Below are positions 18,492 through 64,000 of a stretch of DNA of 64,000 nt, in pieces (positions within the stretch are counted from its first letter, which is position 1; every line of letters starts with the position of its first letter). Made by a program: the position numbers and the translations under genes. Origin of the DNA: a virus (lineage: Duplodnaviria > Heunggongvirae > Uroviricota > Caudoviricetes > Demerecviridae); the IMG/VR virus record IMGVR_UViG_2974570554_000001; one strand, 5' to 3'. The notes under the pieces were generated by a model, which worked only from the letters and a program-made list of their open reading frames with translations, was not told the DNA's origin and made no database searches.

Positions 18492-18508
18492 AATCTAAAG
18501 AGGTAAAC

Positions 18509-18964: not shown

Positions 18965-18980
18965 TTTTCTATTGGAGAAG

Positions 18981-19145
18981 ATAATGTTCACATTAGGCGT
19001 AATATGGCTTATTTTTCAAGGTATAACTTGTACTGCTCTAGCTGATTGTAAAAGTGAAGACATGTGTAATAAAATTATGTGGATGCCAACGATAGTACGT
19101 TGGATTATCTTTACTGTCCCGTCCTTAGTCGTATGGGCTAATAAA
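18981..19145 (+). CDS. small membrane protein (54 aa)
   Basis: RBS GGAGAAGATA; two hydrophobic segments. Confidence 0.3.
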
Positions 19146-19159
19146 TAACGGAGAAGATT

Positions 19160-19489: not shown

Positions 19490-19494
19490 ACAAC

Positions 19495-19581
19495 GCTGGC
19501 GTGGTGGAATTGGTAATACACGTGGGGCTTAAAACCCCATGCCCTAGAGGATTGAGAGTTCGAGTCTCTCCGCCAGTACCA
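19495..19581 (+). tRNA. tRNA-Leu (TAA), type II
   Basis: Acceptor gctggcg/cgccagt; anticodon stem tgggg/cccca with loop CTTAAAA; long variable arm; T-arm gagag-TTCGAGT-ctctc; ACCA end. Confidence 0.65.
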
Positions 19582-39766: not shown

Positions 39767-40693
39767 ATGAAATTTAACGTACAAGATTTGATTGACCGTG
39801 GCTTGGTTAAGGCTAAAGAATACGACAATGGACTAAAAGTATTGAAGTATGATCGCTCGGTATTCTTCAAGAACTTGTGGCATCTAGACGAACGCTTGCT
39901 TGAGTGTCGTGGTCGCGTGGTTGACGCTGACTGGAATGTGATTGTTAATCCATTCAAGAAAGTATTCAATTACGGTGAAAATGGTACTGGTAACGAGCTA
40001 CGAAAAGACTGTCTGTACCGTGAAGTACACAAGCTTAACGGGTTCTTGGGTTGTGTTACTCGTTCCTCAGAGTATGGCATGTTGTACTCTACTACTGGCA
40101 CACTAGACTCCACTTACGCTGGTATGGTGAAAGAGATGTTCCTAGAACATACTCGTAACATTGATGAAATTCATCCAGATTTTACGATGATGTTCGAGGT
40201 CTGTCATGAAGACGACCCACACATCGTACCAGAGCAGGTAGGTCTATACCTGATTGGTTGCCGCCATACTGGTGAGGGTGAAGAATGCGAAGAAGAGCAG
40301 TTTACAGAGAAAGAGCTGGATAAACTTGCTCGTGCATTTGGTTGGCGTCGTCCAGAGCATCGCTTAGATACTCTAGAAAATATCCTAGCACGAGCTAAGG
40401 TATCTAAGACAGAAGGTGTTATGGTGTGTTCAGCACTAAATGACGAGCACTTGTTTAAATACAAGACTCCACACTATCTGTCTAAAAAGCTGCTCATGCG
40501 TCTAGGCAAGGCTAAAGTTGAGAAACTGTTTGAAGCTCCAGACATGTTCAAGCAATGGTTGAAGGATGAAGAGTTCTTCGGTATTGTGGACTACATCCTA
40601 GCTAATATGGATAAGGAAGAATGGTTGGCACTAGGTGAGCAAGGTCGTCGTAAGTTCATGGAAGATTGGTTCGACAAAAACAACGCTTTTTAA
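39767..40693 (+). CDS. ATP-dependent RNA ligase (Rnl-family nucleotidyltransferase)
   Basis: Nucleotidyltransferase motif I KLNG (KxNG) in ...YREVHKLNGFLGCV; sits in the operon with the kinase and phosphoesterase; RBS GGAGTAGAAGAT. Confidence 0.5.
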   Translation: MKFNVQDLIDRGLVKAKEYDNGLKVLKYDRSVFFKNLWHLDERLLECRGRVVDADWNVIVNPFKKVFNYGENGTGNELRKDCLYREVHKLNGFLGCVTRSSEYGMLYSTTGTLDSTYAGMVKEMFLEHTRNIDEIHPDFTMMFEVCHEDDPHIVPEQVGLYLIGCRHTGEGEECEEEQFTEKELDKLARAFGWRRPEHRLDTLENILARAKVSKTEGVMVCSALNDEHLFKYKTPHYLSKKLLMRLGKAKVEKLFEAPDMFKQWLKDEEFFGIVDYILANMDKEEWLALGEQGRRKFMEDWFDKNNAF

Positions 40694-40694
40694 A

Positions 40695-40723
40695 TTGCCA
40701 AAGCAGGGATGCTTTGATATAAT
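40695..40723 (+). promoter_or_regulatory. T5-type early promoter
   Basis: -35 TTGCCA at 40695, -10 TATAAT at 40718. Confidence 0.55.
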
Positions 40724-40748
40724 ATCTGTAGAAATTGAGGAGATTGTT

Positions 40749-41012
40749 ATGATTATTTCTAAGTATGATGTAGTTGTTAGTTTTGGTGCAAGTAGTTACT
40801 GTGACGTAACTATGTGCCAAAGTGATTTTTGCCAGATTAAGGACGAGCTTATAGAGAGACTGAGTGAGTTTGGTGGAGAAATCTGCGTAACACTTACTAC
40901 TATATCTTTTACCATAGCTGGCATTGAAAATGTATCATATGCGGAAGAGCTAGAAACTAAGCTAGCAGGTATTGGTGAATACTTACTTGATTGTTTATGG
41001 GAGCAAGAATAA
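40749..41012 (+). CDS. hypothetical protein
   Basis: Start after leader GAGGAGATTGTT. Confidence 0.4.
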   Translation: MIISKYDVVVSFGASSYCDVTMCQSDFCQIKDELIERLSEFGGEICVTLTTISFTIAGIENVSYAEELETKLAGIGEYLLDCLWEQE

Positions 41013-41416
41013 TGAAAAAACTATATTTGATTCGCGGTGTATCGGGTTCTGGCAAAACTACTCTAGCTAAGTCAATGGAACAAGGTATGCGATACTCTCG
41101 TGCTGTTGCTGCTGACGACTACTTCATGTTTGAAGGTAAATATCTATTTGATGTTAATAAGCTACATGCAGCGCATCAATGGTGTCAAGACCAAGTTGAT
41201 GGTCTTATGATTTGCGAGATGCACCACATTATTGTACATAATACCTTTACTACTGAAAAAGAAATGAAGCCATACTTTGACTTAGCGGAGAAATACGGTT
41301 ATGAAGTAACAACTCTAGTGGTTGAAAATCGTCATGAATCGGAATCGGTACACGATGTACCAGAAGAAACTCTAACACGTCAGCGTCAACGCCTACGTGC
41401 TAATATCCGTCTATAA
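41012..41416 (+). CDS. P-loop kinase (polynucleotide 5'-kinase-like)
   Basis: Walker A GVSGSGKTT at the N-terminus; about 135 aa; RBS GGGAGCAAGAATA. Confidence 0.55.
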   Translation: MKKLYLIRGVSGSGKTTLAKSMEQGMRYSRAVAADDYFMFEGKYLFDVNKLHAAHQWCQDQVDGLMICEMHHIIVHNTFTTEKEMKPYFDLAEKYGYEVTTLVVENRHESESVHDVPEETLTRQRQRLRANIRL

Positions 41417-41425
41417 GGAGGTAAT

Positions 41426-41989
41426 ATGCGTCTACAGTTCGGAGCAAAACTAAATCCAGATGTGAATTATTTTATCACGTCTGACTTACACTTCTTTCAT
41501 ACTAACATTATGAAGTTCTGTCCAGAGACGCGTCCTTGGGCTGACCGTAATGAAATGACGGAAGCACTTATTGCACATTGGAACTCTATTGTGGGTGAAG
41601 ATGATGTAGTGTTCCACCTTGGAGATTTTTCATTCGCAGGAATGGAGAAAACTCAGGCTGTCCTAGACCGATTGAATGGTCACATCGTATGGGTAATGGG
41701 CAACCACGACAAAACTGTTCGAAATCAGTTGAAGTCACCAAACAAGTTCGAATATCTCGAAGTTACTTATAATAAAATCAAAATCTGTATGTTCCACTAT
41801 GCAATGCGTGTATGGAATATGCAACATCATGGTAGCATCCACTTCTATGGTCACTCCCATGGGTCACTAGAAGGTACTGGACGCTCTATGGACGTGGGCT
41901 ATGATGCTCATGGTCGAATCCTGCCGCTAGATTGGGCAGTAAGACAGATGCTCAAAGTTGAGCGTATAGAAACAGAAGACCACCACTAA
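41426..41989 (+). CDS. calcineurin-like metallophosphoesterase (putative 2',3'/3'-phosphatase)
   Basis: DLHFFH...GDFSF...GNHD...GHSH motifs; RBS AGGAGG. Confidence 0.6.
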   Translation: MRLQFGAKLNPDVNYFITSDLHFFHTNIMKFCPETRPWADRNEMTEALIAHWNSIVGEDDVVFHLGDFSFAGMEKTQAVLDRLNGHIVWVMGNHDKTVRNQLKSPNKFEYLEVTYNKIKICMFHYAMRVWNMQHHGSIHFYGHSHGSLEGTGRSMDVGYDAHGRILPLDWAVRQMLKVERIETEDHH

Positions 41990-42450
41990 TGATTAAATAT
42001 ACCGCAATACTATCAAGCCTAGTGCTAATGCTAGGCTTTGCTCACGATGCCCTTGCAACTGAAAAAGTTGAAGACCCCGCCAAGATTGAAGTCTATGGCG
42101 GGGCTTTGTCGTATCACTTCGATACGGATAAAGACCTAAATAACGTAAATCCACTTGTCATTGCTACATATGACGATTGGGCTACAGGCTACTTCTATAA
42201 TAGCTATAAAGAGAACTCCTTCATGGTAGGACGAAACTTCTATCTAGAAAGAAAAGAGCAATCTCCTGTAGTTATAGGGGTAATCCTGGGAGCTGTAACG
42301 GGCTATAATAAAAATCAAGTACCTATGTGCTTTACAGATGGATTCTGTCCTATGGTAATGCCTTACATTCAATGGCATTATGGTAACTGGAAGCCAACTA
42401 TAATCTTCGGCGGAGCATTCGTTTCTGCTGCTGTTGGATACGAATTTTAA
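41989..42450 (+). CDS. small outer-membrane beta-barrel-like protein
   Basis: Signal peptide; alternating aromatic/hydrophobic beta pattern; C-terminal ...VGYEF (terminal Phe). Confidence 0.45.
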   Translation: MIKYTAILSSLVLMLGFAHDALATEKVEDPAKIEVYGGALSYHFDTDKDLNNVNPLVIATYDDWATGYFYNSYKENSFMVGRNFYLERKEQSPVVIGVILGAVTGYNKNQVPMCFTDGFCPMVMPYIQWHYGNWKPTIIFGGAFVSAAVGYEF

Positions 42451-42454
42451 AACT

Positions 42455-42487
42455 TAGGTTGCTTAGGCAACCTTTTTTACGTATAAT
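42455..42487 (+). promoter_or_regulatory. terminator-hairpin / T5-promoter fusion
   Basis: aggttgcttaggcaacct hairpin followed by TTTTTT; its TTGCTT is the -35 (42459) for -10 TATAAT at 42482. Confidence 0.55.
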
Positions 42488-42517
42488 ATATGTATAAATT
42501 GAAGAGAAGGAAACAAT

Positions 42518-43390
42518 ATGTCAAATATTAGCATTATGTGTAACGGCGACAACCATCATTACGAACTACAAGTAGACTTCACTAAGTTCTCAGATGGAGC
42601 AGAAACTTGTACTATTCGCAAACCAAATGTAGACCTTACTAAGTCTAATTTCGTGGTCGTTACTATTAACTTCCAAGACGTTACTCGTGATATTGTACGT
42701 CTACTCCTAGTGAAAGATGCACTAGACCAAATGCGTGCTGAAAACTGTATCAATTGGGAACGCATCTCACTAAACATGCCATACATCCCTAACGCTCGCG
42801 CTGACCGTAAGTTTGGTTTTGGTATGCCAATGCCAATGAAAGTATTTGCTAACCTTATCAACGACCTAGAGTTCGATGAAGTAATGGTAGAAGACCCTCA
42901 TTCAGATGTTAGTGTGGCACTAATCAATAACGCCACTGTACTAGACCAATCAGCGTTGGTTAGTATAATGGAACATCATATAGAACGCTACATGCCTGAC
43001 TTCACTCTGTGTGCCCCAGACTTAGGTGCTGCTAAGAAAATCTTTGATGTAGCGTTTGCTCTGGATAAACGAGACTGGATTCAAGGTCTTAAAATCCGTG
43101 ACGTACTAACAGGTGATATTGTTAAGTGTGACCTAGTACAAGATGAAGTGCCTGAAAACGTTCTTATCGTGGACGACATTTCAGACGGTGGAGCATCATT
43201 CAAGTTCTTGGCTAAGAAACTAAAAGAGCGTGGAGCTAAGAAAGTAGGTCTATATGTTACTCATGGTATCTTCTCTAAGGGTCTAGACCCAATCCGTGAA
43301 GATATTGACTATGTATTCGTACACAACTTCATTGGTGGTTACATCAATGCAGCAAACGTCCTAGCATTTAATGAAGGTAAGGATCAATAA
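42518..43390 (+). CDS. ribose-phosphate pyrophosphokinase (Prs) homologue; candidate ADP-ribose pyrophosphokinase (Adps-like)
   Basis: FSDGAETCTIRK, PYIPNARADRK and VLIVDDISDGGASFKFLAKKLKERGAKKV align with Prs FSDGE, PYFGYARQDR and VDDMIDTGGT...LKERGAKRV. Confidence 0.7.
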   Translation: MSNISIMCNGDNHHYELQVDFTKFSDGAETCTIRKPNVDLTKSNFVVVTINFQDVTRDIVRLLLVKDALDQMRAENCINWERISLNMPYIPNARADRKFGFGMPMPMKVFANLINDLEFDEVMVEDPHSDVSVALINNATVLDQSALVSIMEHHIERYMPDFTLCAPDLGAAKKIFDVAFALDKRDWIQGLKIRDVLTGDIVKCDLVQDEVPENVLIVDDISDGGASFKFLAKKLKERGAKKVGLYVTHGIFSKGLDPIREDIDYVFVHNFIGGYINAANVLAFNEGKDQ

Positions 43391-43863
43391 TGATTAAAGT
43401 AATTCAAGGTGATATGGTCAAGCACCTACAATCAAAAGACCACCTAGATGCATACGCTCACCAGTGTAACTGTTTCTGTAGAATGGGGAGAGGCATTGCG
43501 CCTCTTCTAGCTAAAGCAGTGCCTTGGCTAAGGGCTGCGGATAGTTTTGATGAAGGCGACAAAAATAAGTTGGGTACAGTATCCAAAGCTAAGCACCCTA
43601 ATGGGGCAGTAGTATTCAATGTATATGGTCAATATCATTGGAACAAATTTAAAGTAGCACCTGGGAGAAATACTGACTACGATGCGCTAGAGAAGGGGCT
43701 GTGGAGAGTGTTGGCAGATATGCTAAAGGACGACATGAAAACATTAGGCTTACCTCTGATTGGTTGCGGTCTAGCAGGGGGTGATTGGGATAATGTAGTG
43801 CTCCCAATGATTCACAAAGTGTTTGATAATTCAGGCGTTGACGTAACTATTTTTAAATTGTAA
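43390..43863 (+). CDS. macro-domain protein (ADP-ribose binding/processing)
   Basis: IQGDM...AHQCNC...GIA...LIGCGLAGGDWDNV pattern typical of macro domains; ATGA coupling. Confidence 0.55.
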   Translation: MIKVIQGDMVKHLQSKDHLDAYAHQCNCFCRMGRGIAPLLAKAVPWLRAADSFDEGDKNKLGTVSKAKHPNGAVVFNVYGQYHWNKFKVAPGRNTDYDALEKGLWRVLADMLKDDMKTLGLPLIGCGLAGGDWDNVVLPMIHKVFDNSGVDVTIFKL

Positions 43864-43892
43864 TTGCTTAACTAATTAAATTTACGTATAAT
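43864..43892 (+). promoter_or_regulatory. T5-type early promoter
   Basis: -35 TTGCTT at 43864, -10 TATAAT at 43887. Confidence 0.55.
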
Positions 43893-43924
43893 ATATTCAT
43901 AAATTAAAGAGAAGGAAATAATCT

Positions 43925-45577
43925 ATGTCATACAACATCCCTTACCTAGCAGCACTTATCACTGACGGCTACAAAGTATTCCACCCGTTTGCTTACCGCC
44001 CAGGCACCACTCACGTGTACAGTAATGGTACTGCTCGTTTTAATAAACACTCGAACGTACCAAACAACGCTGAAATCGTTCACTTTGGTATCCAAATGGC
44101 TCTACAGAAGCTAAACACATTGTGGAACGAAAACTTCTTCAAGCACCCTAAAGAAGCAGTTCTAGCAGAATACCAACGTGTTATCTCTGGCTACCTAGGC
44201 AAGAAAATTAGTGTAGACCATATTGCTAAACTACACGATGTTGGTTATCTGCCAATCGAAGTTAAGTCACTACCAGAAGGTTCTCTTGTACCTTACGGTG
44301 TGCCACCATACACTATTCACAACACTGTGGAAGGTCTAGGTTGGGTAACTAACCTGCTAGAAACTCCATTCAGTGCTGAGTATTGGCCTGCTGTAACATC
44401 TGCTACTACTGCATTTGCTTACCGCTCTCGATTCGAACAAGTACCATCACTACGTGCTGGCGGTATGATTAAGTTCATGGGTCACGACTTCTCTGCTCGT
44501 GGTCTGTGGGGTATGTTTGCACCAGAACAGAATGGTCACTTGACTTCATTTGTTGGTACAGACTCTATGGTATCTGGTCTAGCAATGGAGCAATACTACG
44601 ATGCTCGTATCGACAAAGAGCTAGTAATGGCTTCTGTTGATGCTACAGAGCACTCGGTAATGTGCAGCTACGAAACAGAGAACGAGCTAGAATCATTGAT
44701 TCACTTGATTAGCAACGTTACTCCAAACGGTATTATCTCTATCGTTTCGGATACATGGGACTTCTGGCAGTTGGTAACTCAATACCTACCACAAATCAAA
44801 GACCTAATCATGTCTCGTGATGGTACAGTGGTTATTCGTCCAGACTCAGGCGACCCTGTTGAAATCTTGTGTGGTTTAGGTAACTGGGTAGAAGTGGACG
44901 CCCGAGTATACCGAAAAGCAGCATATCATGATGATGTATCTGAGTCAGAAAATAATAGTTATTACAAGTTCTTCAATGAGTGGAAAGACTGCGAATATGC
45001 AAAATACAAAGGTACATTCTACAAAATTAAACGTGAATCATATCATGGATATGTAGAACTTCAAGAAGAAGTACCAGAGCACGAAGTTAAAGGTCTAGTA
45101 GAATGTCTATGGGATACATTCGGTGGTACAGAAGTTGATGGTCTACGTCTTCTAGACTCTCACATCGGAGCAATTTACGGTGACTCTATTACTCTAGCAC
45201 GTCAAGACCAAATTATCGAGCGTTTGCTTGCTAAAGGTTTTGTTCCTAGCGTAGTTCTTGGTATTGGCTCATTCACATACCAGTATGTTACTCGTGATAC
45301 TCACGGCTTTGCTATTAAAGCTACTGACATTCAAGTTGGTGAAGGCAATCACATTGCTATTAGCAAAGACCCTAAAACTGACCAAAGCAAAAAGTCTGCT
45401 AAAGGCTTGCTAATGGTCGTAAAAGACGGCGATAGCTACCGTCTAGTGGCAGACGTTACTCCAGAGCAGGAAGCTTCGGAAGAAAACTGCCTAAAAACTA
45501 TCTTCAAAGACGGTGAGTTCGTTAAACGTACCTCACTTGCTGAAATCCGTGCTCGAATTGACTCGCATTTCGCGTAA
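43925..45577 (+). CDS. nicotinamide phosphoribosyltransferase (NAMPT/NadV) homologue; candidate Namat-type nicotinamide-ADPR transferase
   Basis: 550 aa; N-terminal ...TDGYKVFHP... and the overall length match NAMPT-family enzymes; RBS AGAGAAGGAAATA. Confidence 0.65.
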   Translation: MSYNIPYLAALITDGYKVFHPFAYRPGTTHVYSNGTARFNKHSNVPNNAEIVHFGIQMALQKLNTLWNENFFKHPKEAVLAEYQRVISGYLGKKISVDHIAKLHDVGYLPIEVKSLPEGSLVPYGVPPYTIHNTVEGLGWVTNLLETPFSAEYWPAVTSATTAFAYRSRFEQVPSLRAGGMIKFMGHDFSARGLWGMFAPEQNGHLTSFVGTDSMVSGLAMEQYYDARIDKELVMASVDATEHSVMCSYETENELESLIHLISNVTPNGIISIVSDTWDFWQLVTQYLPQIKDLIMSRDGTVVIRPDSGDPVEILCGLGNWVEVDARVYRKAAYHDDVSESENNSYYKFFNEWKDCEYAKYKGTFYKIKRESYHGYVELQEEVPEHEVKGLVECLWDTFGGTEVDGLRLLDSHIGAIYGDSITLARQDQIIERLLAKGFVPSVVLGIGSFTYQYVTRDTHGFAIKATDIQVGEGNHIAISKDPKTDQSKKSAKGLLMVVKDGDSYRLVADVTPEQEASEENCLKTIFKDGEFVKRTSLAEIRARIDSHFA

Positions 45578-45597
45578 ATAAATTAAAATAAATAAAA

Positions 45598-45625
45598 GAA
45601 AAGGCTACCTAGGTAGCCTTTTATA
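45598..45625 (+). terminator. rho-independent terminator
   Basis: aaaaggctacc-tag-gtagcctttt palindrome. Confidence 0.6.
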
Positions 45626-45641
45626 TTCGTGGGAGAATATA

Positions 45642-46289
45642 TTGATAGAATTATTAGATTTTCATGGTAGCGACAACGCTATTGCTAACAGTGCTCGTGT
45701 TAGTTTTGCTGATTTTGGTGTTTGGAACGAAATTCCAGAGAATTACTCCGTGGAGCGACGTAATAAACTAATTAAGTACCTAGCCAACCACAAACATTTA
45801 ACCCCATTCAGACACACTTCACTAAGTATTCGCTGTAAAGCACCTATTTTTATCGCCAGACAACTAGGTAAACACCAAGCAGGACTATCGTGGAATGAAG
45901 TATCAAGACGTTATGTAAAATCTAATGTAAAGTTCTTTATTCCTGAAAAATGGAGAGCAGCACCTGAAGGTAGTATAAAGCAGGGGAGCGCAGGTACACA
46001 CCCAGATAATGATAATATTAAACTAGGATATGATCACTTTATCGAGCACTGTGAGGAGTTCTATAATAAACTTCTCTCCGATGGAGTGGCTCCAGAAATG
46101 GCTAGAATGGTTCTACCTCAATCTATGATGACAGAGTGGGTATGGACAGGTAACTTACTTGCAATGGCTCACATCTATAAAGAACGAATTGCTCCTGGAG
46201 CGCAGGAAGAGGTAAGAGAGTTCGCTAAAAAATTAGACTCAGTTATAAGACCGCTCTTTCCAATTTCTTGGTCTGCTTTAGTAGATTAA
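45642..46289 (+). CDS. thyX: flavin-dependent thymidylate synthase ThyX
   Basis: ThyX signature RHR-x7-S region ...KHQAGLSWNEVSRRY; about 215 aa. Confidence 0.65.
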   Translation: MIELLDFHGSDNAIANSARVSFADFGVWNEIPENYSVERRNKLIKYLANHKHLTPFRHTSLSIRCKAPIFIARQLGKHQAGLSWNEVSRRYVKSNVKFFIPEKWRAAPEGSIKQGSAGTHPDNDNIKLGYDHFIEHCEEFYNKLLSDGVAPEMARMVLPQSMMTEWVWTGNLLAMAHIYKERIAPGAQEEVREFAKKLDSVIRPLFPISWSALVD

Positions 46290-46296
46290 TAACCAC

Positions 46297-46322
46297 AGGG
46301 GCTACTTCGGTAGCCCCTTTAA
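46297..46322 (+). terminator. rho-independent terminator
   Basis: aggggctac-ttcg-gtagcccct hairpin followed by TTTAA. Confidence 0.55.
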
Positions 46323-46338
46323 CATTTAATTAATATAG

Positions 46339-46371
46339 TTGCAAATTTCTCATAACATGGTATTATATAAT
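46339..46371 (+). promoter_or_regulatory. promoter variant
   Basis: -35 TTGCAA at 46339; -10 TATTAT/TATAAT around 46361-46371. Confidence 0.4.
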
Positions 46372-46391
46372 CATTCAGAGGAGAATTACAT

Positions 46392-46901
46392 ATGAAAAAA
46401 CTTTTAGCAACAATTTTAATGGTAGCAGCTTGTGGTACTGCATCTGCAGCAGAACTTAACTTATCTGCCCAACAAGGTATGATTACAGACTCAGTTAGAG
46501 GAGACACCCTGGCAGGGGTTCAGTTATCTGTAGATGATATTTACGAAGGCGTAGGGCTTTATGGTAGTGTTGGCAAGATACATGGTGACTCTGTACCTAA
46601 AGATATAAACTCTAATAAACGATATAGAAGTATTGGTGTAACCTATAAAGCTACAGATAACGTAACAGTATATACAGGTTTTTCTCAAGCCAGATATTCT
46701 GGGAAATCCGAAACTTACTATGTGCATCAGGTAGTGGAAGGCAGAAAAATGAAGTTAAAAGCACACAGAGCAGTGCACGATGACAAAAATGGTATCGAAG
46801 TAGGTATGCGCTATACAATGGATAACGGCTTAGCTTTCGGTATGGGGTATAATACAGCACCTAAGGCGGTGTTTACAACTATTGGTTGGACATTTAAGTA
46901 A
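46392..46901 (+). CDS. Ail/Lom/OmpX-like small outer-membrane beta-barrel protein
   Basis: Signal peptide ...TASAA; alternating beta pattern; C-terminal ...TIGWTFK aromatic terminus. Confidence 0.5.
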   Translation: MKKLLATILMVAACGTASAAELNLSAQQGMITDSVRGDTLAGVQLSVDDIYEGVGLYGSVGKIHGDSVPKDINSNKRYRSIGVTYKATDNVTVYTGFSQARYSGKSETYYVHQVVEGRKMKLKAHRAVHDDKNGIEVGMRYTMDNGLAFGMGYNTAPKAVFTTIGWTFK

Positions 46902-56459: not shown

Positions 56460-57000
56460 GTATCTAGAATTTGCACCACCTCACGTTAGTGTATCCTCGG
56501 CATATCTCGTGCGAAGCACATGTCTAGCCGGAATTGGGGGAAGGACAAAGGGTACAATAGGTTCTATCATTAATAGTAGAAGTCGGATTTGCACCTGGTT
56601 AAGGAGCGACCCCCGAAAAGTCAATTGGTTTTTCCAAATTTCTGCCCAAATCCCACAAAATCTTTAAATCCTGTCTGTTTTGCACCTAGACCACCATATA
56701 ACCCCCATAAACGCCTAAAAAACTCGAAAAATCCAATTTGAGGTCGGATCCGCACCTGCTGGCGGGCGCAGAGTGTCAATTGAAGTTTTATCGAATTTGC
56801 ACCGCTCGCGCTAGCGTATCCACACCCAAATTCGGGCATAATATGTGCGCAGCACGAGTCTAGCCCGTGTCCCCATGTCGGTTCTGCACCTAGTCCCACC
56901 AAAATAATTTATAATAGAATTTGCACCTACTGCCCCAAGAATGTCGTTTTTGCACTTGTCGGATTCGCACCTACAGGCGCAGAGGACATCGAGCCGTCTA
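56460..57000. repeat. array of about 9 dispersed TTTGCACCT-type repeats (GTCGGATTTGCACCT core) plus the palindrome CTAGACGTCTAG
   Basis: Copies near 56469, 56589, 56676, 56751 (TCCGCACCT), 56803, 56888, 56924, 56950 and 56964 with irregular spacing; non-coding. Confidence 0.6.
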
Positions 57001-57049
57001 GACTTCTATCCATCTAGACGTCTAGCCATCCGTATGGCATACTGCAAAC

Positions 57050-57250
57050 CGTTACAGTACACCGTGTTGTATAAAATTTTACCGTATACCGTCCCGTATA
57101 AAATATGGCACGATTCTTGCTTATTAAAAAGTTATCCACAACTGTATATTTATACATCGCTCTAAAACGCTCTATACAGAGTTATCCACAACCTTATCCA
57201 CCGAAAAACTACTGTATAGATATACAGATATATACTTGCCTTATATTATT
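57050..57250. promoter_or_regulatory. DnaA-box cluster with iterons and an AT-rich palindrome (origin-like, or host-DnaA binding as at the T5 injection-stop region)
   Basis: TTATCCACA at 57133 and 57183, TTATCCACC at 57194; repeated CCGTATA / GTATAAAAT; palindrome TGTATAGATATACAG. Confidence 0.5.
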
Positions 57251-57480
57251 TCGAATACCGTTTCTAGCGCCTATAAGCCACGTACAGACGTTTTAAGCCT
57301 TTTAGGGTACTATGACGCCTACACCATCCTATACGCCCATAGCGCCATGTAACACTAGCACGACTTTTACGTGCTGCCGGAGCGGCGCGGTTTACCATAC
57401 TGTAAACAAGTTACAGATAGGTGTACGGTAAAAGTTGATGAAAAAGCGTCACTTTTCGGTGACGCTGTAACAGTTTAAAT

Positions 57481-57687
57481 CTAGTCTATAATCCAGAGGT
57501 ATTCCCCTTCTTTCAATCCTAGCAAGTGGTTAAACCCTGTCAGGATACGCCCCCACGGGATAGGGCTGCCCTCCATAGTCTCACACCACTCCAAGTACAT
57601 AGTGGTGATATTTTCGCTAAAATCACCGTTTCTTACACGGTCTTGAATTTCACCCAAGCCGATAATCACTACAGAATGGCGTTCCAT
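57481..57687 (-). CDS. hypothetical small protein (leftward operon)
   Basis: 68 aa; its start abuts the stop of the upstream minus-strand gene. Confidence 0.45.
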   Translation of the reverse strand: MERHSVVIIGLGEIQDRVRNGDFSENITTMYLEWCETMEGSPIPWGRILTGFNHLLGLKEGEYLWIID

Positions 57688-57867
57688 TTAGTTTACCTCC
57701 ACCGGATAAAGTTTGTTTACTACAGCGTACACCGTACCGTTATCATCTTGCCACACCTGACCAAATTCGGTGGTTTCTACGTGCTTCAAAATCATAGGAA
57801 CAATATGACCATTATGCATAATGTTGCACATCCAAGTTTGTCCCAAGGTCATAACGTGAACGCTCAT
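57688..57867 (-). CDS. hypothetical small protein (59 aa; ORF track minimum is 60 aa)
   Basis: ATG 57867..57865 overlaps the upstream stop (ATGA); translation MSVHVMTLGQTW... Confidence 0.4.
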   Translation of the reverse strand: MSVHVMTLGQTWMCNIMHNGHIVPMILKHVETTEFGQVWQDDNGTVYAVVNKLYPVEVN

Positions 57868-58112
57868 TAGTAAGTTACCTTTAGGTCAGCAGTTAATGAA
57901 ACACGAAATTCTTGTGTCGCAGGTACTTCAAAAAATATACCACTCCCAAGACTTACAACGCCGATATATTTATCGTCCACGCCGTGAACGTTATCACAAT
58001 CTGTCACGATAAGAGGGGCGTTATCCTCATCTAGCACGATTGTTCCCGCAGCAATATCATATAGCGGTAGTTTCTTGCTACTAGTAGCCGTTGCAATTGA
58101 TAGTTTACTCAT
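57867..58112 (-). CDS. hypothetical small protein
   Basis: 81 aa. Confidence 0.45.
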   Translation of the reverse strand: MSKLSIATATSSKKLPLYDIAAGTIVLDEDNAPLIVTDCDNVHGVDDKYIGVVSLGSGIFFEVPATQEFRVSLTADLKVTY

Positions 58113-58217
58113 TTTAGAATCACCAAAATTTTATTATAGTCCATACGTACCGTATAAAACGGTTTGCCATTTCTAGCAGCCCATAGCAACGCAGTTGCAT
58201 AGTTGTCAAATTCCATA

Positions 58218-58448
58218 CTAATAATGTGTCGGTAGGTTAAGTCTTAACAATCCATTGCGAACACCAAAACATAGGTGCTTACATTCTACAGGTTCAAGCT
58301 CGCAAGGGTAGCACATAAAAGACTCACCACAATAAACATACGGGGATACTACAGAAATATAACTCCCGTCAATGGCTACAATAACACCACATTTGCCGTT
58401 AGTATCTTTGCAGCGACCTTTTACTTTTACAATTTGGTTAACTTTCAT
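58218..58448 (-). CDS. hypothetical Cys-rich small protein
   Basis: 76 aa, 7 Cys. Confidence 0.4.
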   Translation of the reverse strand: MKVNQIVKVKGRCKDTNGKCGVIVAIDGSYISVVSPYVYCGESFMCYPCELEPVECKHLCFGVRNGLLRLNLPTHY

Positions 58449-58522
58449 TTATGGGTACTCCGTAGGGTATAGGGTACACATAGCATACCCTAAACATGTT
58501 AACACAATGATTACAACTAACA

Positions 58523-58843
58523 TTATAAATCTAGCCATCCATTGTAAAACGTTGCGCCCTCAAAAATCGCGCGCCATGTTAACAAGTCAGCCCTAGCGTA
58601 TTGGTACAGCATACCGCCATTAGTCGCGCCCTTAGCAAAAGCTATAGCATACGCTAAAACTTTAGCTTTTAACACGTCCTCGACATCATTGAAAAGGCTG
58701 ATATTTCGAGTGATTTCGAAATGGTATTCTTTGTTGCTCAAGAAGCATTGAGCCATTTCTAGACGTTTGCTCATTGGAGTATCCGCGTCCAGTTGGTACG
58801 CTGTACTGATTTTTGGTTGTTCTAAAAATTGTTGGTACGACAT
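58523..58843 (-). CDS. hypothetical protein
   Basis: 106 aa. Confidence 0.45.
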   Translation of the reverse strand: MSYQQFLEQPKISTAYQLDADTPMSKRLEMAQCFLSNKEYHFEITRNISLFNDVEDVLKAKVLAYAIAFAKGATNGGMLYQYARADLLTWRAIFEGATFYNGWLDL

Positions 58844-58919
58844 TTTGTTGCCCTCGCTTAAAGCGGTTATTATTGTCTAGGTCTTAATAATAACCTAGGC
58901 GACTGATAAAAACTTTGAC

Positions 58920-59234
58920 CTAGCTCACAAAATGATAATCTACTTGATCAATACCAATTTCTCGCCAAACGGGATCATTAGTTGTTAGGCCATACCCATT
59001 TAGTATAAAGTCAATACTAGCATTATTACCTAGATTACAAAGCCCTTCAATATTCATTTGGTCGTTATAGAACATAATACCGTAAGCCGGATTAACCATA
59101 ACAGCCAATTGAGAATCATTCTCAATATACCATACGGTATTCTCAGGGCTTTCTTCATCAATGATTTTACGTGCTTCAGCAATGATTGAGTCTAGGCTAA
59201 TCAAAGTTGGTGTTTCTTTACAATTAAAACCCAT
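58920..59234 (-). CDS. hypothetical acidic protein
   Basis: 104 aa. Confidence 0.45.
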   Translation of the reverse strand: MGFNCKETPTLISLDSIIAEARKIIDEESPENTVWYIENDSQLAVMVNPAYGIMFYNDQMNIEGLCNLGNNASIDFILNGYGLTTNDPVWREIGIDQVDYHFVS

Positions 59235-59407
59235 TATTCACTATCCTCTAAACAAGTGCAACAAATTAGACACAAATCGCATTCACCACAAAAATCAGCG
59301 CAGTCATCGCAGTTATCGCATTCTGGACAAACATCCAGATAATCAACCGAGCCACATTTAGGGCAAGGCTCATTATCCGCATCATACTGTTTACACATTT
59401 TTAACAT
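59234..59407 (-). CDS. Cys-rich metal-binding-like small protein
   Basis: CPKCGSVDYLDVCPECDNCDDCADFCGECDLCLICCTC; internal ATG with RBS GGAG; the longer track ORF starts with TTG. Confidence 0.4.
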   Translation of the reverse strand: MLKMCKQYDADNEPCPKCGSVDYLDVCPECDNCDDCADFCGECDLCLICCTCLEDSE

Positions 59408-59462
59408 CTCCAATAAGGGTAAAAACCAACCAATAGGGATAAACAAAACGCTATACTGCAAA

Positions 59463-59585
59463 TTAGTTCAAACATGTTATGCCTACTTTTTCAAATAGTT
59501 TATGCATAGTTGCGGCAGTCGCCACACACTCGCCAGTCTCAATACTGATACAAAACCAAATAACATCAAAAAACATACGGTACAT
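59463..59585 (-). CDS. small hydrophobic protein (40 aa)
   Basis: RBS GGAGGG 7 nt before the ATG; first gene of the leftward operon. Confidence 0.35.
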   Translation of the reverse strand: MYRMFFDVIWFCISIETGECVATAATMHKLFEKVGITCLN

Positions 59586-59744
59586 TGTTTTGCCCTCCTA
59601 GTGGGTAGGCTTTTATTACACTCCTATTTTCATGATTTGTCTAATAACATTTAGTTATATCCACCAGCAAAACGATGCCCAGGCGTTATAAGCGCTGTAA
59701 GCCACTCTGAGAGGTTCTAGCAAAAAGCCTTGTTTTAGTATGCC

Positions 59745-59915
59745 TTACCTGTGGATAACCGCTTACAATGGATTCTAGAGCCTAGAAACGCCATTCTATA
59801 TCGTATAAGCTGTGATTTAGTGTAGATAAAAGCCGTTTTCCTGTTAGTATCTTGTGGATAACCAGTAGATATACAGTATTATTAGAACTTGCTAATGTTA
59901 ATAAGTCTGTGGATA
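59745..59915. promoter_or_regulatory. second DnaA-box cluster, in opposite orientation to the first
   Basis: TGTGGATAA at 59752, 59851 and 59905, in the divergent intergenic region. Confidence 0.5.
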
Positions 59916-60369
59916 AAAAGTTGGCACGAAAATTTCCTAATATATAAATCAAGAAATATTTTGCTATATAATATAACTAGAAATTCTTTGACAAGCTCAA
60001 AAATCTATGAATCGAGTTATGCATGAAAGTGACTAAATATGCAGAAAAATAGCTAAAAGTGCATAAACGATTTAAATGGGCAAACGTACAGGGTAAGGCT
60101 ATTTTTCAATACAGAGCCATACAGAGCGTTTTAGAGGCATGTATAAATATACAGTAGTTTTTAAGTTGGCATGGTTATTGCTACGCGTGCGCATTCTTTA
60201 TATATTTAAGCAAAAATTCGCTGATAGATAAAACCTATCAATAAGCCAAAAAGAAAAGATTTAAACGATTAGACTATAATCCTAGATTCGCTATTATATA
60301 CCCATACCGCAACAACACGGCGGGGAAGAAAAGCTTGAAAAGCTTCTCGAAAAAAGTTGAAAAAAGTTG

Positions 60370-60397
60370 TTGACAAGGTTTTTTAAATCCTTATAAT
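60370..60397 (+). promoter_or_regulatory. consensus sigma70 promoter for the rightward module
   Basis: -35 TTGACA at 60370, 16-bp spacer, -10 TATAAT at 60392. Confidence 0.5.
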
Positions 60398-60561
60398 GGC
60401 AACCAGAAACAACGAAAACGCTCTTTAACAATTTGGAAAATGCGATTTGACCCATTGCTTACTTGATTGGTTGCTGAGTGATAACCGTTAGCTGATTTTG
60501 AGGAAGTCAGCTAACTGAGAATCACTCTCATTTTAAACTAACCTATTAAGAGGAAAATATC

Positions 60562-60999
60562 ATGGCTAAAAAATGGACAGAAGAAATGGCGGAAAAAGCA
60601 GCAACTCTTTACACTGCTAAACTTGAAGCGGAAGGTAAAGAAGCGGCAGCACATACCGATTTTCTTGATACTATTGCGGTTGACGTTGAAGCGGTAAGTG
60701 GTAAAGCGGTTCGCTCAAAACTTACTGTTATGGGTGTTTACCAGAAACCGGACGCCGTAGCTAGTGTAGCTAAAACGAACACTGTACGCAAAGAACACTA
60801 TGTTCGTGCTCTAGCTCATACGCTTGGCTTAGACGCTGACGATTTGGACAGCTTGAAAAACGCTAAAATGTCAGCCCTTGAAGCGTTATCGACTGCGATT
60901 GGTATCACTGATATTCAGGCAGCAAGCGCAAAAGATTACGAACCTGATTTAGAAAAGGTTTGTGAAGCTTTCGAAAACGCCCGTGGTCTAGACCTATAG
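60562..60999 (+). CDS. hypothetical protein (A2-position, pre-early-like)
   Basis: RBS AAGAGGAAAA; 145 aa; codon usage richer in GCG/CCG/CGT than the early region. Confidence 0.5.
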   Translation: MAKKWTEEMAEKAATLYTAKLEAEGKEAAAHTDFLDTIAVDVEAVSGKAVRSKLTVMGVYQKPDAVASVAKTNTVRKEHYVRALAHTLGLDADDLDSLKNAKMSALEALSTAIGITDIQAASAKDYEPDLEKVCEAFENARGLDL

Positions 61000-61080
61000 A
61001 CGCCTAAACAATTAGGGGGAATTATCCCCCTAATTTACAGTGTAAATTTACCCAAGTTTACACTGTAAATTAACCCATAA

Positions 61081-61449
61081 TTGGAGAGTAACAAAATGGC
61101 TAAAATTAGTATTAAATCGCTTTTAAACAATGGTAGCGCAAAACAAGAACTACAAAACAAAGTGGAAAAACTAACAGGTGTTAGTTTTAACTGGCGACCA
61201 AATAACCGTATTTCTGGGCGTACACTGCAAGCCGTCATTGACCTATCAGAGTACAAACGACCGCTTTTTAATGAAAGTGAGATTGATTCGCTACGCTACG
61301 AAAACAAGGCAGCAAAAACAGTTGTTTTGGGTATGTTGTGCGAAGCTCTAGAAATCAGTGACCTAGAACAACGCAAGGCAATTATGACGATTGCGAGTTG
61401 TTCAAGCTCTGACGACTTTGTGACAAAAGTTCTATTCATGTTTGTATAA
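61081..61449 (+). CDS. hypothetical protein
   Basis: RBS TTGGAGAG; 122 aa. Confidence 0.45.
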   Translation: MESNKMAKISIKSLLNNGSAKQELQNKVEKLTGVSFNWRPNNRISGRTLQAVIDLSEYKRPLFNESEIDSLRYENKAAKTVVLGMLCEALEISDLEQRKAIMTIASCSSSDDFVTKVLFMFV

Positions 61450-61523
61450 CGGGACAAAATATTCTAGGGTATTCTAGCGAGTACCCTAGCGAATATTTTT
61501 AACCGCAAAAGCGAGTATATACA

Positions 61524-63188: not shown

Positions 63189-63207
63189 ACCGTAGCACAT
63201 AAACTAC

Positions 63208-63909
63208 GTGGCGGGCGCAAATGTGATGCCCGTCACACTTTTACTTAACCGCATAAGCGAGTATTTACCAATGAAAAAAGCATACATATTTGACCTAGAC
63301 GGAACAACAATTGATAGTTTTCACCGTGTTGAGCCGTGTCTTGATTCACAAGGTAACTTGAATCTAGATAAATATATTAAGGAAGCTTGCACTCCTGAAA
63401 AGGTAGCCAATGACAAACTGTTGCCCCTTGCCGGATACATGCAACAACTAATCAAACAGGGTGAACTTGTTATCATCCTAACAGCTCGTTACATGCTTAA
63501 TCATGATTATGTTTACCTACGCCGTAACCAATTGAGAACGCCTATCATTTGCAGCCGTGACCAATTGAGCCGTGTATTCGGTGAAGGTAATGCAGCCCGT
63601 ATCAGTGCAATGTCAGACGCACCATACAAACAACAATGGTTCGAGCATCTATTTGCTAGTATGCCACAAGTTACAGAATGGTGTTTCTTTGACGACCATG
63701 ACGGTATATTAGAAATGGCTAATTCATTAAAAGGTGTTACAGCTACAGACGCCAAATTGATGAATCAGTTGTTAGAAATGCAATGGGCTGACATTTACCG
63801 CCAAGGTGAACAAGACACCGCCGAGTTGATTCAAGACCTAATCGCTGAATGTTCACATCAAGACGTGATTTGCAAACCAGAATGGATTGACCAGCTTTTA
63901 GCTGAATAA
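63208..63909 (+). CDS. HAD-family 5'-deoxyribonucleotidase-like protein (Dmp-like)
   Basis: Internal MKKAYIFDLDGTTIDS (HAD motif I); 233 aa versus about 244 aa for T5 Dmp; lies next to the A1-like gene. Confidence 0.5.
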   Translation: MAGANVMPVTLLLNRISEYLPMKKAYIFDLDGTTIDSFHRVEPCLDSQGNLNLDKYIKEACTPEKVANDKLLPLAGYMQQLIKQGELVIILTARYMLNHDYVYLRRNQLRTPIICSRDQLSRVFGEGNAARISAMSDAPYKQQWFEHLFASMPQVTEWCFFDDHDGILEMANSLKGVTATDAKLMNQLLEMQWADIYRQGEQDTAELIQDLIAECSHQDVICKPEWIDQLLAE

Positions 63910-64000
63910 TCAAAGAAAAGCTGTACAAATGAGAATGATTACCGTCCTCAATAAGGGGGGCGGTAATGAGACTTGTTCTCATCTACGGTAGGGTGTGCAC

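What the first reader, a model, noticed from the sequence alone, without database searches (positions are those of the whole stretch)
42518..45577. Prs-homologue, macro-domain and NAMPT-homologue operon: a NARP1-like NAD+ reconstitution module
Three coupled genes share one early promoter. The first is a clear PRPP-synthetase homologue, with the FSDG, PY..AR.DR and VDD..D.GG PRPP-loop motifs conserved. The third is a 550-aa NAMPT-family enzyme. This pairing matches the recently described phage NARP1 pathway, in which an ADP-ribose pyrophosphokinase (a Prs paralogue) and a nicotinamide-ADPR transferase (a NAMPT paralogue) rebuild NAD+ from the ADPR and nicotinamide left by NAD-depleting defences such as Thoeris, DSR, SIR2 and CBASS-NADase. 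The macro domain inserted between the two enzymes is not part of the described minimal pathway. It could supply free ADPR from ADP-ribosylated substrates or ADPR-1''-phosphate. A three-gene variant would be a new architecture. A calcineurin-like phosphoesterase (41426..41989) and a small outer-membrane barrel lie immediately upstream.
Basis: partly seen in the sequence, partly recalled or inferred. Interest (0 to 1): 0.75.

Follow-up and report, generated by a model that had tools for sequence, protein, structure and literature searches.

The report
Known phage NAD+ rebuilding operon (NARP1-AP)

Summary
The window is the right half of Vibrio phage Thalassa (100% identity).

The functional call is correct, and so is the guess about the macro domain. 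The claim of a new architecture is not. A January 2026 preprint (Osterman et al., 10.64898/2026.01.28.702374) describes "NARP1-AP": Adps, a macro-domain ADPR-1''-phosphate phosphatase (Adpp) and Namat. It counters aRES, a RES-domain defence that turns NAD+ into nicotinamide and ADPR-1''-phosphate. The operon tested there comes from Vibrio phage Gary, of the same genus. Thalassa's proteins are 97%, 79% and 87% identical to Gary's.

Thalassa's own three genes, including the exact 157-aa macro sequence, are in that paper's Table S1. They are also in the supplementary tables of the 2024 NARP1 paper.

All three residues whose mutation killed the Gary operon are present, as are the Adps active-site residues and the Namat adenine-clamp motif.

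Small refinements: there are two conserved promoter-like sites rather than one, and the Namat carries a hypervariable 61-aa insert. The neighbouring phosphoesterase is not a conserved part of the module.

Novelty: already known. Interest is low.

The parts
42456..42473 (+). Terminator-like hairpin (AGGTTGCTTAGGCAACCT followed by TTTTTT) that ends the upstream PagP-like gene. It overlaps the -35 element of the operon promoter.
   Evidence: Terminator scan; sequence read.
42459..42487 (+). Promoter-like site P1 (TTGCTT-N17-TATAAT), 31 nt upstream of the Adps start. An AGAAGGA ribosome-binding site follows.
   Evidence: The motif occurs 8 times in the window, all on the + strand, against 0.09 expected. 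The same position carries it in Gary (L001 3984) and phi 3 (L006 4016). Function as a promoter is inferred.
42518..43390 (+). adps: ADP-ribose pyrophosphokinase (ADPR + ATP gives ADPR-PP + AMP), a Prs paralogue of 290 aa. RefSeq gp183, annotated 'ribose-phosphate pyrophosphokinase'.
   Evidence: 97% identical to Gary Adps and 54% identical to ICP1 Adps, whose structure and activity are published. All ICP1 ligand-contact and catalytic residues are conserved, including K192 (ICP1 K185). It scores below every NCBIfam Prs cut-off. It is listed as Adps MG649967_00172 in the supplements of both Osterman papers.
43390..43863 (+). adpp: macro-domain ADPR-1''-phosphate phosphatase, 157 aa, start/stop coupled to adps (TAATG). 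RefSeq gp184, annotated 'phosphatase'.
   Evidence: Pfam Macro at 31.5 bits against a cut-off of 22. 79% identical to Gary KNV71_gp137, the purified enzyme of the preprint. H24, the residue mutated in that study, is present. The AF2 model has pLDDT 90.6 and matches TARG1, DarG and Poa1p macro folds. The exact sequence is in Table S1 of the preprint.
43864..43892 (+). Promoter-like site P2 (TTGCTT-N17-TATAAT) in the 61-nt gap between adpp and namat. An AGAAGGA ribosome-binding site follows.
   Evidence: Conserved at the same place in Gary (L001 5392) and, with one mismatch, in phi 3 (L006 5458). No terminator lies between adpp and namat, so read-through from P1 is also possible. This is inferred.
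43925..45577 (+). namat: nicotinamide ADP-ribose transferase (ADPR-PP + nicotinamide gives NAD+ + PPi), a NAMPT paralogue of 550 aa. RefSeq gp185.
   Evidence: The best PDB sequence match is SPbetaL1 Namat 9W5X/9W5W at 393 bits. H. ducreyi NadV scores 321 bits and Xanthomonas and mammalian NAMPTs about 140-158 bits. Foldseek also ranks 9W5X first, at E 1.8e-46. The Namat signature GSFTYQYVTRD is at aa 448-458. The catalytic H243 is present. Listed as 'Adps-associated' MG649967_00174.
44876..45079 (+). Lineage-specific insert within namat (aa 318-385; 61 aa longer than insert-free homologues), lying just after the RPDSGDP catalytic strand. It is absent from the ICP1 and SPbetaL1 Namat proteins.
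   Evidence: Alignments. The site varies by 0 to about 90 aa across 120 homologues. This version occurs only in Thalassa, Hades, Pylo and River4. DNA identity to Gary drops from about 95% to below 50% here. AF2 predicts a small alpha/beta unit with pLDDT 56-89. Its function is unknown.
45599..45622 (.). Palindromic hairpin (AAAAGGCTACCTAGGTAGCCTTTT) 22 nt after the namat stop codon. It is the likely end of the transcription unit.
   Evidence: One search flagged it on the - strand. On the + strand the same stem is followed by TTTTAT. Termination of + strand transcripts is inferred.

Best explanation
The locus is the NARP1-AP counter-defence operon of Vibrio phage Thalassa (Thalassavirus, a T5-like member of the Demerecviridae).

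Proposed mechanism:
1. During infection, a host NADase defence cleaves NAD+.
2. Canonical systems (Thoeris, DSR, SIR2-HerA and others) leave ADP-ribose (ADPR) plus nicotinamide. RES-domain aRES systems leave ADPR-1''-phosphate plus nicotinamide.
3. The macro-domain enzyme Adpp (43390-43863) removes the 1''-phosphate to give ADPR.
4. Adps (42518-43390) transfers the beta-gamma pyrophosphate of ATP onto the distal ribose of ADPR, giving ADPR-PP.
5. Namat (43925-45577) joins ADPR-PP to nicotinamide and regenerates NAD+.

What was shown here: gene content and order, orthology to the tested operon, and conservation of the catalytic and specificity residues.

What was shown by others on orthologues: the enzyme activities and the anti-aRES and anti-Nezha phenotypes (Gary operon), the Adps structure and mechanism (ICP1), and the Namat structure and mechanism (SPbetaL1).

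What is inferred: that Thalassa's own proteins do the same, and that expression runs from two early-type promoters.
For: 1. Identity of the locus. The window matches Vibrio phage Thalassa MG649967/NC_042095 at 100%.

2. Direct listing in the literature. Table S1 of 10.64898/2026.01.28.702374 gives Adps MG649967_00172, Namat _00174 and MACRO _00173 with the exact 157-aa sequence. The 2024 NARP1 supplements list the Namat as 'Adps-associated' and use Thalassa's Adps as the cluster representative that also covers Gary's.

3. Orthology to the tested operon. Gary belongs to the same genus. Gene order and the adps/adpp start-stop overlap are the same, and the proteins are 97%, 79% and 87% identical.

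4. Experimental basis in Gary. The three-gene operon overrode aRES and Nezha. [quoted passage not shown] Purified Adpp converted ADPR-1P to ADPR.

5. Mutated residues. Adps K192, Adpp H24 and Namat H243 are the residues mutated in that study, and all are present at the same positions here.

6. Adps residues. ICP1 F18, R87, F92, H121, D161, K185, D212, D213, I214, D216, A219, S220, F221 and F223 are all invariant in the alignment. The protein falls below every NCBIfam Prs cut-off.

7. Namat residues. The signature GSX-phi-X-phi-X-phi-TRD is present as GSFTYQYVTRD, with aromatics at motif positions 3 and 7. The nearest true NadV in the PDB has GAQTYQRNTRD instead.

8. Macro fold. The model has pLDDT 90.6 and matches TARG1 (E 2e-12) and Poa1p (E about 3e-8).

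9. No alternative pathway. No NMNAT or NadR gene is annotated anywhere in the genome, so a NARP2 or NARP3 reading has no partner enzyme.

10. Ecology. aRES candidates are listed in Vibrio harveyi, V. parahaemolyticus and V. gazogenes genomes.
Against: - Nothing has been measured on Thalassa's own proteins.
- Adpp is the least conserved of the three (79% to Gary), with two divergent patches. Its substrate preference could have shifted, although the ligand-binding loops and H24 are unchanged.
- Homologues of this macro protein occur in 2714 phage records, far more than carry NARP1. The family therefore also works outside NARP1 operons and may have other substrates.
- By sequence and fold the closest solved macro domain is TARG1/OARD1, a de-ADP-ribosylase and O-acetyl-ADPR deacetylase, rather than Poa1p.
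- Published in-vitro work shows that Namat also makes NMN from PRPP, so some classical activity cannot be excluded.
- The NARP1-AP work is a preprint.
Confidence: 0.93

Rival explanations
1. Classical nicotinamide salvage. The first enzyme is a genuine PRPP synthetase and the third a genuine NadV/NAMPT that makes NMN. This would be a NARP2-like route, with host NadR or NadD finishing the job, and the macro gene would be an unrelated passenger.
For: RefSeq and GenBank annotate the genes this way. ORF3 passes the NCBIfam 'nicotinate phosphoribosyltransferase' model NF006629 at 419.9 bits against a cut-off of 405. Namat enzymes retain NMN-forming activity in vitro.
Against: ORF1 falls below every Prs model cut-off: 101 against 113 for the subfamily model, and 29-81 against 296-536 for the other Prs models. 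It is 54% identical to ICP1 Adps, and its best match among solved structures, E. coli Prs, scores only 49.6 bits. ORF3 carries the adenine-clamp aromatics that true NadV lacks. No NMNAT gene is annotated in the genome. The orthologous Gary operon needs all three genes to defeat aRES.
Confidence: 0.03
2. The macro protein's main job is not phosphatase activity. It could instead remove ADP-ribose from modified protein, DNA or RNA (countering DarT-like or other ADP-ribosyltransferase defences), or deacetylate O-acetyl-ADPR. Feeding ADPR to Adps would then be a side benefit.
For: The closest solved relatives are TARG1/OARD1 (42 bits; Foldseek E 2e-12) and DarG macro domains. Homologues are far more widespread in phages (2714 records) than NARP1-AP operons.
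Against: The protein is 79% identical to an enzyme shown to convert ADPR-1P to ADPR and required specifically against aRES. It sits between adps and namat and is start/stop coupled to adps in two genera. The position aligned with the TARG1 catalytic Asp (GCGLD) is Ala (GCGLA) in all 44 homologues examined. That TARG1 uses a Lys84/Asp125 dyad is my own recollection of the literature, not a tool result. The DarG model scores 31 bits against a cut-off of 250.
Confidence: 0.08
3. The chemistry is the same but the purpose differs. The operon is a housekeeping booster of NAD+ for the phage's own NAD-dependent enzymes rather than a counter-defence.
For: The genome encodes a split NAD-dependent DNA ligase (gp56 and gp60) and a PnuC-like transporter. 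The operon sits among early nucleotide-metabolism genes such as ThyX.
Against: [quoted passage not shown] A phosphatase specific for ADPR-1''-phosphate makes sense mainly against RES-type cleavage. The Gary operon gives a clear anti-aRES and anti-Nezha phenotype.
Confidence: 0.05

Closest known systems
NARP1-AP of Vibrio phage Gary (Osterman et al., bioRxiv 10.64898/2026.01.28.702374)
   Same: Same genus, gene order (adps-adpp-namat), adps/adpp overlap and two promoter-like sites. The proteins are 97%, 79% and 87% identical, and the three mutated catalytic residues are conserved. Thalassa's operon is itself a row in that paper's Table S1.
   Different: Adpp differs in two surface-like patches, and the Namat insert is an unrelated sequence of different length. 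The flanks also differ: Gary has an extra gene between the phosphoesterase and PagP, and lacks the ThyX and Lom-like genes found downstream in Thalassa. Thalassa's proteins have not been tested.
Two-gene NARP1 (Adps + Namat) of Bacillus phage SPbetaL1, E. coli phage Bas63 and Vibrio phage ICP1
   Same: The Adps and Namat chemistry. Adps is 54% identical to ICP1 Adps with all active-site residues kept. The Namat is 64% identical to ICP1's and gives 393 bits to the SPbetaL1 Namat structure, with the same adenine-clamp motif.
   Different: Those operons have no macro gene. According to the preprint, two-gene NARP1 fails against aRES. Their Namat proteins have no insert after the RPDSGDP strand.
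NARP2 of Vibrio phage KVP40 (NAMPT + bifunctional NMNAT)
   Same: A phage-encoded NAMPT-family enzyme used to restore NAD+.
   Different: NARP2 uses PRPP and passes through NMN, and it needs an NMNAT. No NMNAT is annotated in Thalassa, and its NAMPT-like enzyme carries the Namat clamp.
Yeast Poa1p (PDB 6LFQ) and human TARG1/OARD1 (PDB 4J5Q) macro domains
   Same: The same macro fold (TM-score 0.73-0.84). The H24 mutated to inactivate the Gary operon is present, and a Poa1p H23A mutant structure (6LFS) is among the fold matches. Poa1p is the known ADPR-1''-phosphate phosphatase.
   Different: Sequence identity is only 16-28%. Poa1p acts on a by-product of tRNA splicing, not in defence evasion. 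The TARG1 Asp in GCGLD is Ala here.
RyDEP-extended NARP1 of phage DyoEdafos (bioRxiv 10.64898/2026.05.28.727677)
   Same: The same design principle: an accessory 'feeder' enzyme inserted in a NARP1 operon converts a non-substrate ADPR derivative into ADPR.
   Different: RyDEP is a RyR-domain glycosidase acting on 2'cADPR and 3'cADPR Thoeris signals. It is neither a macro domain nor a phosphatase.

Membership tests
NARP1 (Adps + Namat) | A Prs-like gene and a NAMPT-like gene in close proximity on a phage genome | tested here: met
   ORFs at 42518-43390 and 43925-45577 on the same strand, one gene apart, in phage Thalassa. Listed as a NARP1 pair in the authors' own tables.
NARP1 (Adps + Namat) | Adps active site. 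ADPR contacts are ICP1 F18, R87, F92, H121, D161, D212 and D213. The catalytic Lys is K185. The remodelled PP loop is CDxAAS followed by F-x-F. | tested here: met
   All are invariant in alignment A1. Window numbering is ICP1 +7 from R87 onwards (F18 corresponds to F24): F24, R94, F99, H128, D168, K192, D219, D220. The PP loop is S222-D-G-G-A-S227 followed by F228 and F230, with conservative C-to-S and A-to-G changes that Gary shares.
NARP1 (Adps + Namat) | Namat selectivity-clamp helix motif GS-X-phi-X-phi-X-phi-TRD, with aromatics at motif positions 3 and 7 that stack on adenine | tested here: met
   G448-S-F-T-Y-Q-Y-V-T-R-D458, with F450 and Y454 at positions 3 and 7. Nearly all of the 120 nearest homologues carry the motif. 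H. ducreyi NadV has GAQTYQRNTRD. The variable clamp loop has K41 where SPbetaL1 has R40.
NARP1 (Adps + Namat) | Enzymatic conversion of ADPR + ATP + nicotinamide to NAD+ via ADPR-PP | not testable with these tools
   Shown for SPbetaL1, ICP1 and Gary orthologues in the literature, not for Thalassa.
NARP1-AP (NARP1 with associated phosphatase Adpp) | A macro-domain gene (PF01661, PF14519 or PF20016) within two genes of the NARP1 pair | tested here: met
   PF01661 at 31.5 bits against a cut-off of 22. The gene lies between adps and namat.
NARP1-AP (NARP1 with associated phosphatase Adpp) | Poa1p-like macro fold with the His mutated in the study (Gary Adpp H24) and intact ADPR-binding loops | tested here: met
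   H24 is present. N27, G35-I-A37 and G125-C-G-L-A-G130 are invariant in 44 homologues. The AF2 model (pLDDT 90.6) matches Poa1p 6LFQ/6LFR at E about 3e-8 and TM about 0.73-0.75.
NARP1-AP (NARP1 with associated phosphatase Adpp) | ADPR-1''-phosphate to ADPR phosphatase activity, and rescue from aRES | not testable with these tools
   Shown for the 79%-identical Gary protein and its operon.
Bona fide ribose-phosphate pyrophosphokinase (Prs/PRPS) | Score above the curated cut-offs of the Prs family models | tested here: not met
   TIGR01251 scores 101 against a cut-off of 113. The other Prs models score 29-81 bits against cut-offs of 296-536. All three Pfam Prs/PRT domains fall below their gathering scores.
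NARP2 (NAMPT + NMNAT) | A phage-encoded NMN adenylyltransferase partner | tested here: not met
   No NMNAT, NadR or Nudix-NMNAT is annotated in any of the 226 features of NC_042095. This rests on annotation only; the hypothetical proteins were not all searched.
NARP3 (PnuC-like transporter + NadR-like enzyme) | PnuC adjacent to a bifunctional NR kinase/NMNAT | tested here: not met
   A PnuC-like gene exists at window 16214-16840 (TIGR01528 at 82.7 against a cut-off of 42.45). Its coupled neighbour is a PF05014 nucleoside 2-deoxyribosyltransferase-family protein, not a NadR.
TARG1/OARD1-type ADP-ribosyl glycohydrolase | Catalytic Lys/Asp dyad (TARG1 K84 and D125). The dyad itself is recalled from the literature, not taken from a tool result. 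| tested here: not met
   The residue aligned with the Asp of TARG1 GCGLD is A129 (GCGLA), invariant in 44 homologues. The Lys-aligned position (K86) is Lys in only 22 of 44. The alignment in that loop is uncertain.

The most novel reading that the evidence does not exclude
The operon is about 95% identical to its sister phage's except for two sharply bounded patches: the middle of adpp, and a 61-aa mini-domain inserted next to the Namat catalytic strand. These patches might be products of an ongoing arms race. For example, host factors might bind and block NARP1-AP enzymes, so that the phage swaps surface modules to escape. Alternatively, the Namat insert might add a regulatory or assembly function not seen in the solved, insert-free Namat. 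Nothing here tests either idea. The patches could equally be neutral recombination mosaics at structurally tolerant sites.
Probability: 0.08. Interest if true: 0.5.

Novelty: already known. Interest (0 to 1): 0.12.

Why it matters
The pathway itself matters. It shows phages rebuilding a metabolite that host immunity destroys, and adding a dedicated phosphatase when the host changes the cleavage chemistry. That story is already published, however, and this exact operon appears in its supplementary tables. The practical value here is annotation: GenBank and RefSeq still call the three genes 'ribose-phosphate pyrophosphokinase', 'phosphatase' or 'hypothetical protein', and 'nicotinate/nicotinamide phosphoribosyltransferase'.

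Tried and rejected
1. Generic sigma-70 scan. It found no more promoter-like sites than in shuffled sequence and missed both operon promoters, because TTGCTT matches only 3 of 6 bases of TTGACA. The phage-specific motif search was needed instead.

2. Upstream calcineurin-like phosphoesterase as a fourth component. Rejected. It has no counterpart in the two unannotated ORFs upstream of the operon in phi 3. Gary has another gene inserted after it. A terminator and the PagP-like gene separate it from adps.

3. Solved Adps structures. The PDB copy held none; the best hit was E. coli Prs at 49.6 bits. The comparison was therefore made with the ICP1 sequence and the residue lists in PMC13586617.

4. 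Sequence score alone as a Namat/NAMPT discriminator. It is less clean than it first looked, because H. ducreyi NadV scores 321 bits against 393 for Namat. The clamp motif settles the question.

5. Origin of the Namat insert. A tblastn search found it only in four near-identical phages, plus E about 0.02 hits to hypothetical proteins of jumbo Vibrio phages. I treat those weak hits as chance.

6. aRad1, the other published anti-aRES protein. No homologue or motif was found in the window.

7. NARP2 and NARP3 readings. No NMNAT or NadR partner is annotated anywhere in the genome.

Full report
**1. What is in the sequence**

- ORF1, 42518-43390, 290 aa.
- ORF2, 43390-43863, 157 aa.
- ORF3, 43925-45577, 550 aa.

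ORF1 matches PHROG 619 'ribose-phosphate pyrophosphokinase' at 1.4e-81. It matches the Pfam Prs/PRT domains only just below their gathering scores. ORF2 is a Pfam Macro domain (31.5 bits against a cut-off of 22). ORF3 is a NAPRTase/NAMPT-family protein (2e-31; PHROG 448 at 7e-177).

The quoted motifs FSDG, PY..AR.DR and VDD..D.GG are present at aa 24-27, 88-97 and 218-225 of ORF1. The phosphoesterase (41426-41989) and the PagP-like barrel (41989-42450) are also as described.

**2. Where the window comes from**

Bases 41400-46400 are 100% identical to Vibrio phage Thalassa (MG649967/NC_042095). This is a T5-like phage (Demerecviridae, genus Thalassavirus) isolated on V. harveyi BAA-1116. The window corresponds to record positions 64603-128602. 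Forty-eight phage records hold at least 80% of the three-gene stretch.

**3. What it is**

The literature held here settles the question.
- Osterman et al. 2024 (10.1101/2024.02.11.579819) defined NARP1. Adps, a Prs paralogue, makes ADPR-PP from ADPR and ATP. Namat, a NAMPT paralogue, joins ADPR-PP to nicotinamide to give NAD+.
- Osterman et al. 2026 (10.64898/2026.01.28.702374) described aRES, a RES-domain defence that converts NAD+ to nicotinamide plus ADPR-1''-phosphate. Two-gene NARP1 cannot use that product.
- The same preprint found that 15% of NARP1 phages carry a macro-domain gene in the operon. It showed that the three-gene operon Adps-phosphatase-Namat of Vibrio phage Gary overrides aRES and also Nezha.
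[quoted passage not shown] The purified macro protein (Adpp, KNV71_gp137) converts ADPR-1P to ADPR. The authors named the pathway NARP1-AP.

Gary is a sister species of Thalassa. Gene order, the adps/adpp overlap and the spacing are the same. The proteins are 97% (Adps), 79% (Adpp) and 87% (Namat) identical.

Thalassa's own operon is also listed outright:
- Table S1 of the 2026 preprint has the row MG649967_00172 / _00174 / _00173 with exactly the 157-aa macro sequence of the window.
- The 2024 supplements list the Namat as 'Adps-associated', and use Thalassa's Adps as the cluster representative that also covers Gary's.

**4. Independent residue-level checks**

*Mutated residues.* The mutations used to inactivate the Gary operon were Adps K192A, Adpp H24A and Namat H243A. 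All three residues are at the same positions here.

*Adps.* The structural paper on ICP1 Adps (PMC13586617) names these features:
- ADPR contacts F18, R87 and F92, plus the conserved substrate-recognition residues H121, D161, D212, D213 and D216.
- The catalytic residue K185.
- The donor-binding PP loop C215-S220, capped by F221 and F223.

The window protein is 54% identical to ICP1 Adps, and all of these residues are invariant apart from conservative C215S and A218G changes that Gary shares. The protein fails every NCBIfam Prs model: 101 against 113 for the subfamily model, and 29-81 against 296-536 for the others.

*Namat.* The best PDB sequence match is the SPbetaL1 Namat structure 9W5X/9W5W (393 bits). 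H. ducreyi NadV scores 321 bits and Xanthomonas and mammalian NAMPTs about 140-158 bits. Foldseek ranks the structures in the same order.

The family signature defined in PMC12774641 is GS-X-phi-X-phi-X-phi-TRD, with adenine-stacking aromatics at motif positions 3 and 7. Here it is GSFTYQYVTRD (aa 448-458). The nearest true NadV has GAQTYQRNTRD.

*Adpp.* An AF2 model (pLDDT 90.6) is a macro fold. It matches TARG1 (E 2e-12), DarG and Poa1p (E about 3e-8). The ligand-binding loops N27, G35-I-A37 and G125-C-G-L-A-G130 are invariant in 44 homologues.

**5. Rivals**

- *Classical Prs + NadV salvage.* Contradicted by the failed Prs cut-offs, the clamp motif, and the absence of any annotated NMNAT or NadR in the genome.
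- *A de-ADP-ribosylase role for the macro protein.* Not excluded as a side activity. TARG1 is the closest solved relative, and the macro family occurs in 2714 phage records, far beyond NARP1. However, the Asp of the TARG1 GCGLD motif is Ala in every homologue, and the orthologue is a proven ADPR-1P phosphatase.
- *A housekeeping role.* The phage does have a split NAD-dependent ligase. This would not explain a phosphatase specific for the product of aRES.

**6.

(a) Two promoters, not one. The motif TTGCTT-N17-TATAAT occurs 8 times in the window, all on the + strand, against 0.09 expected. One copy precedes adps (42459), overlapping the terminator of the PagP-like gene. Another sits in the adpp-namat gap (43864). 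Both positions are conserved in Gary and in phi 3, which belongs to a different genus. A palindromic hairpin follows namat.

(b) The phosphoesterase is not part of the module. In phi 3 the order PagP-adps-adpp-namat is kept, but neither of the two unannotated ORFs just upstream resembles the phosphoesterase.

(c) Two divergent patches. Against Gary, the operon DNA is about 95% identical except for the middle of adpp (about 43540-43840) and a Namat segment (about 44870-45085).

(d) The Namat segment is an insert. It adds 61 aa after the RPDSGDP strand and is absent from the ICP1 and SPbetaL1 Namat proteins. It lies at a site whose length varies by 0 to about 90 aa across 120 homologues. This version occurs only in four near-identical phages. 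AF2 predicts a small alpha/beta unit of moderate confidence. Its function is unknown.

**7. Verdict**

The functional interpretation is correct, including the ADPR-1''-phosphate idea. The novelty claim does not hold: both the architecture and this very locus are already in the literature. Novelty is 'already known' and interest is low (0.12). What remains untested is only whether Thalassa's own proteins behave like their Gary, ICP1 and SPbetaL1 orthologues, and what the variable Namat insert does.

Noticed in passing
window 15627-16840: A PnuC-like transporter (16214-16840; PF04973 at 103 bits; it passes the TIGR01528 nicotinamide-riboside transporter cut-off) is start/stop coupled to a PF05014 nucleoside 2-deoxyribosyltransferase-family gene (15627-16214). 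The published NARP3 pathway pairs PnuC with a NadR-like enzyme, and that partner is missing here. The pair may serve deoxynucleoside salvage, or it may be an undescribed nicotinamide-riboside route.
   Followed up: partly
window 44876-45079 (Namat aa 318-385): A hypervariable insert, 61 aa longer than insert-free homologues, lies next to the Namat catalytic strand and is absent from the solved Namat. The same site varies by 0 to about 90 aa across the family. AF2 predicts a small alpha/beta unit (pLDDT 56-89).
   Followed up: partly
window 43540-43840 (adpp): The macro gene is the least conserved part of the operon between Thalassa and Gary (57-85% DNA identity in 60-nt windows against about 95% elsewhere). 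In Table S1, phage Ceto's protein looks like a Gary-type N-terminal half fused to a Thalassa-type C-terminal half, which suggests recombination within the gene.
   Followed up: partly
window 8779, 42459, 43864, 46919, 49603, 51353, 51817, 52757: There are eight exact copies of TTGCTT-N17-TATAAT, all on the + strand, against 0.09 expected. Several overlap a preceding GC-rich hairpin (TTGCTTCGGCAACC), so terminator and promoter are fused. This is probably the phage's early-promoter class.
   Followed up: partly
window 39767-41989: An RnlA-like RNA ligase (39767-40693), an AAA_33 P-loop kinase (41012-41416) and a calcineurin-like phosphoesterase (41426-41989) sit in a row. Together they look like a split 'heal and seal' RNA-repair set of the kind phages use against anticodon nucleases. 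Only domain hits support this.
   Followed up: no
window 9679-19581: A large tRNA gene cluster (23 tRNAs annotated in RefSeq) is interspersed with small ORFs. It includes a YqeY-like protein at 13474-13917 that is annotated 'tRNA amidotransferase'.
   Followed up: no
window about 56600-64000: The right end of the window repeats the gene set at the left end of the record (gp1-gp14 correspond to gp212-gp226, including the DNA transfer protein and the deoxynucleoside-5'-monophosphatase). This is a T5-style long terminal direct repeat.
   Followed up: no
window 45642-46901: ThyX (45642-46289) and a Lom-like outer-membrane protein (46392-46901) follow the operon in Thalassa but are absent at that position in Gary. 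The flanks of the operon are therefore a variable region.
   Followed up: partly
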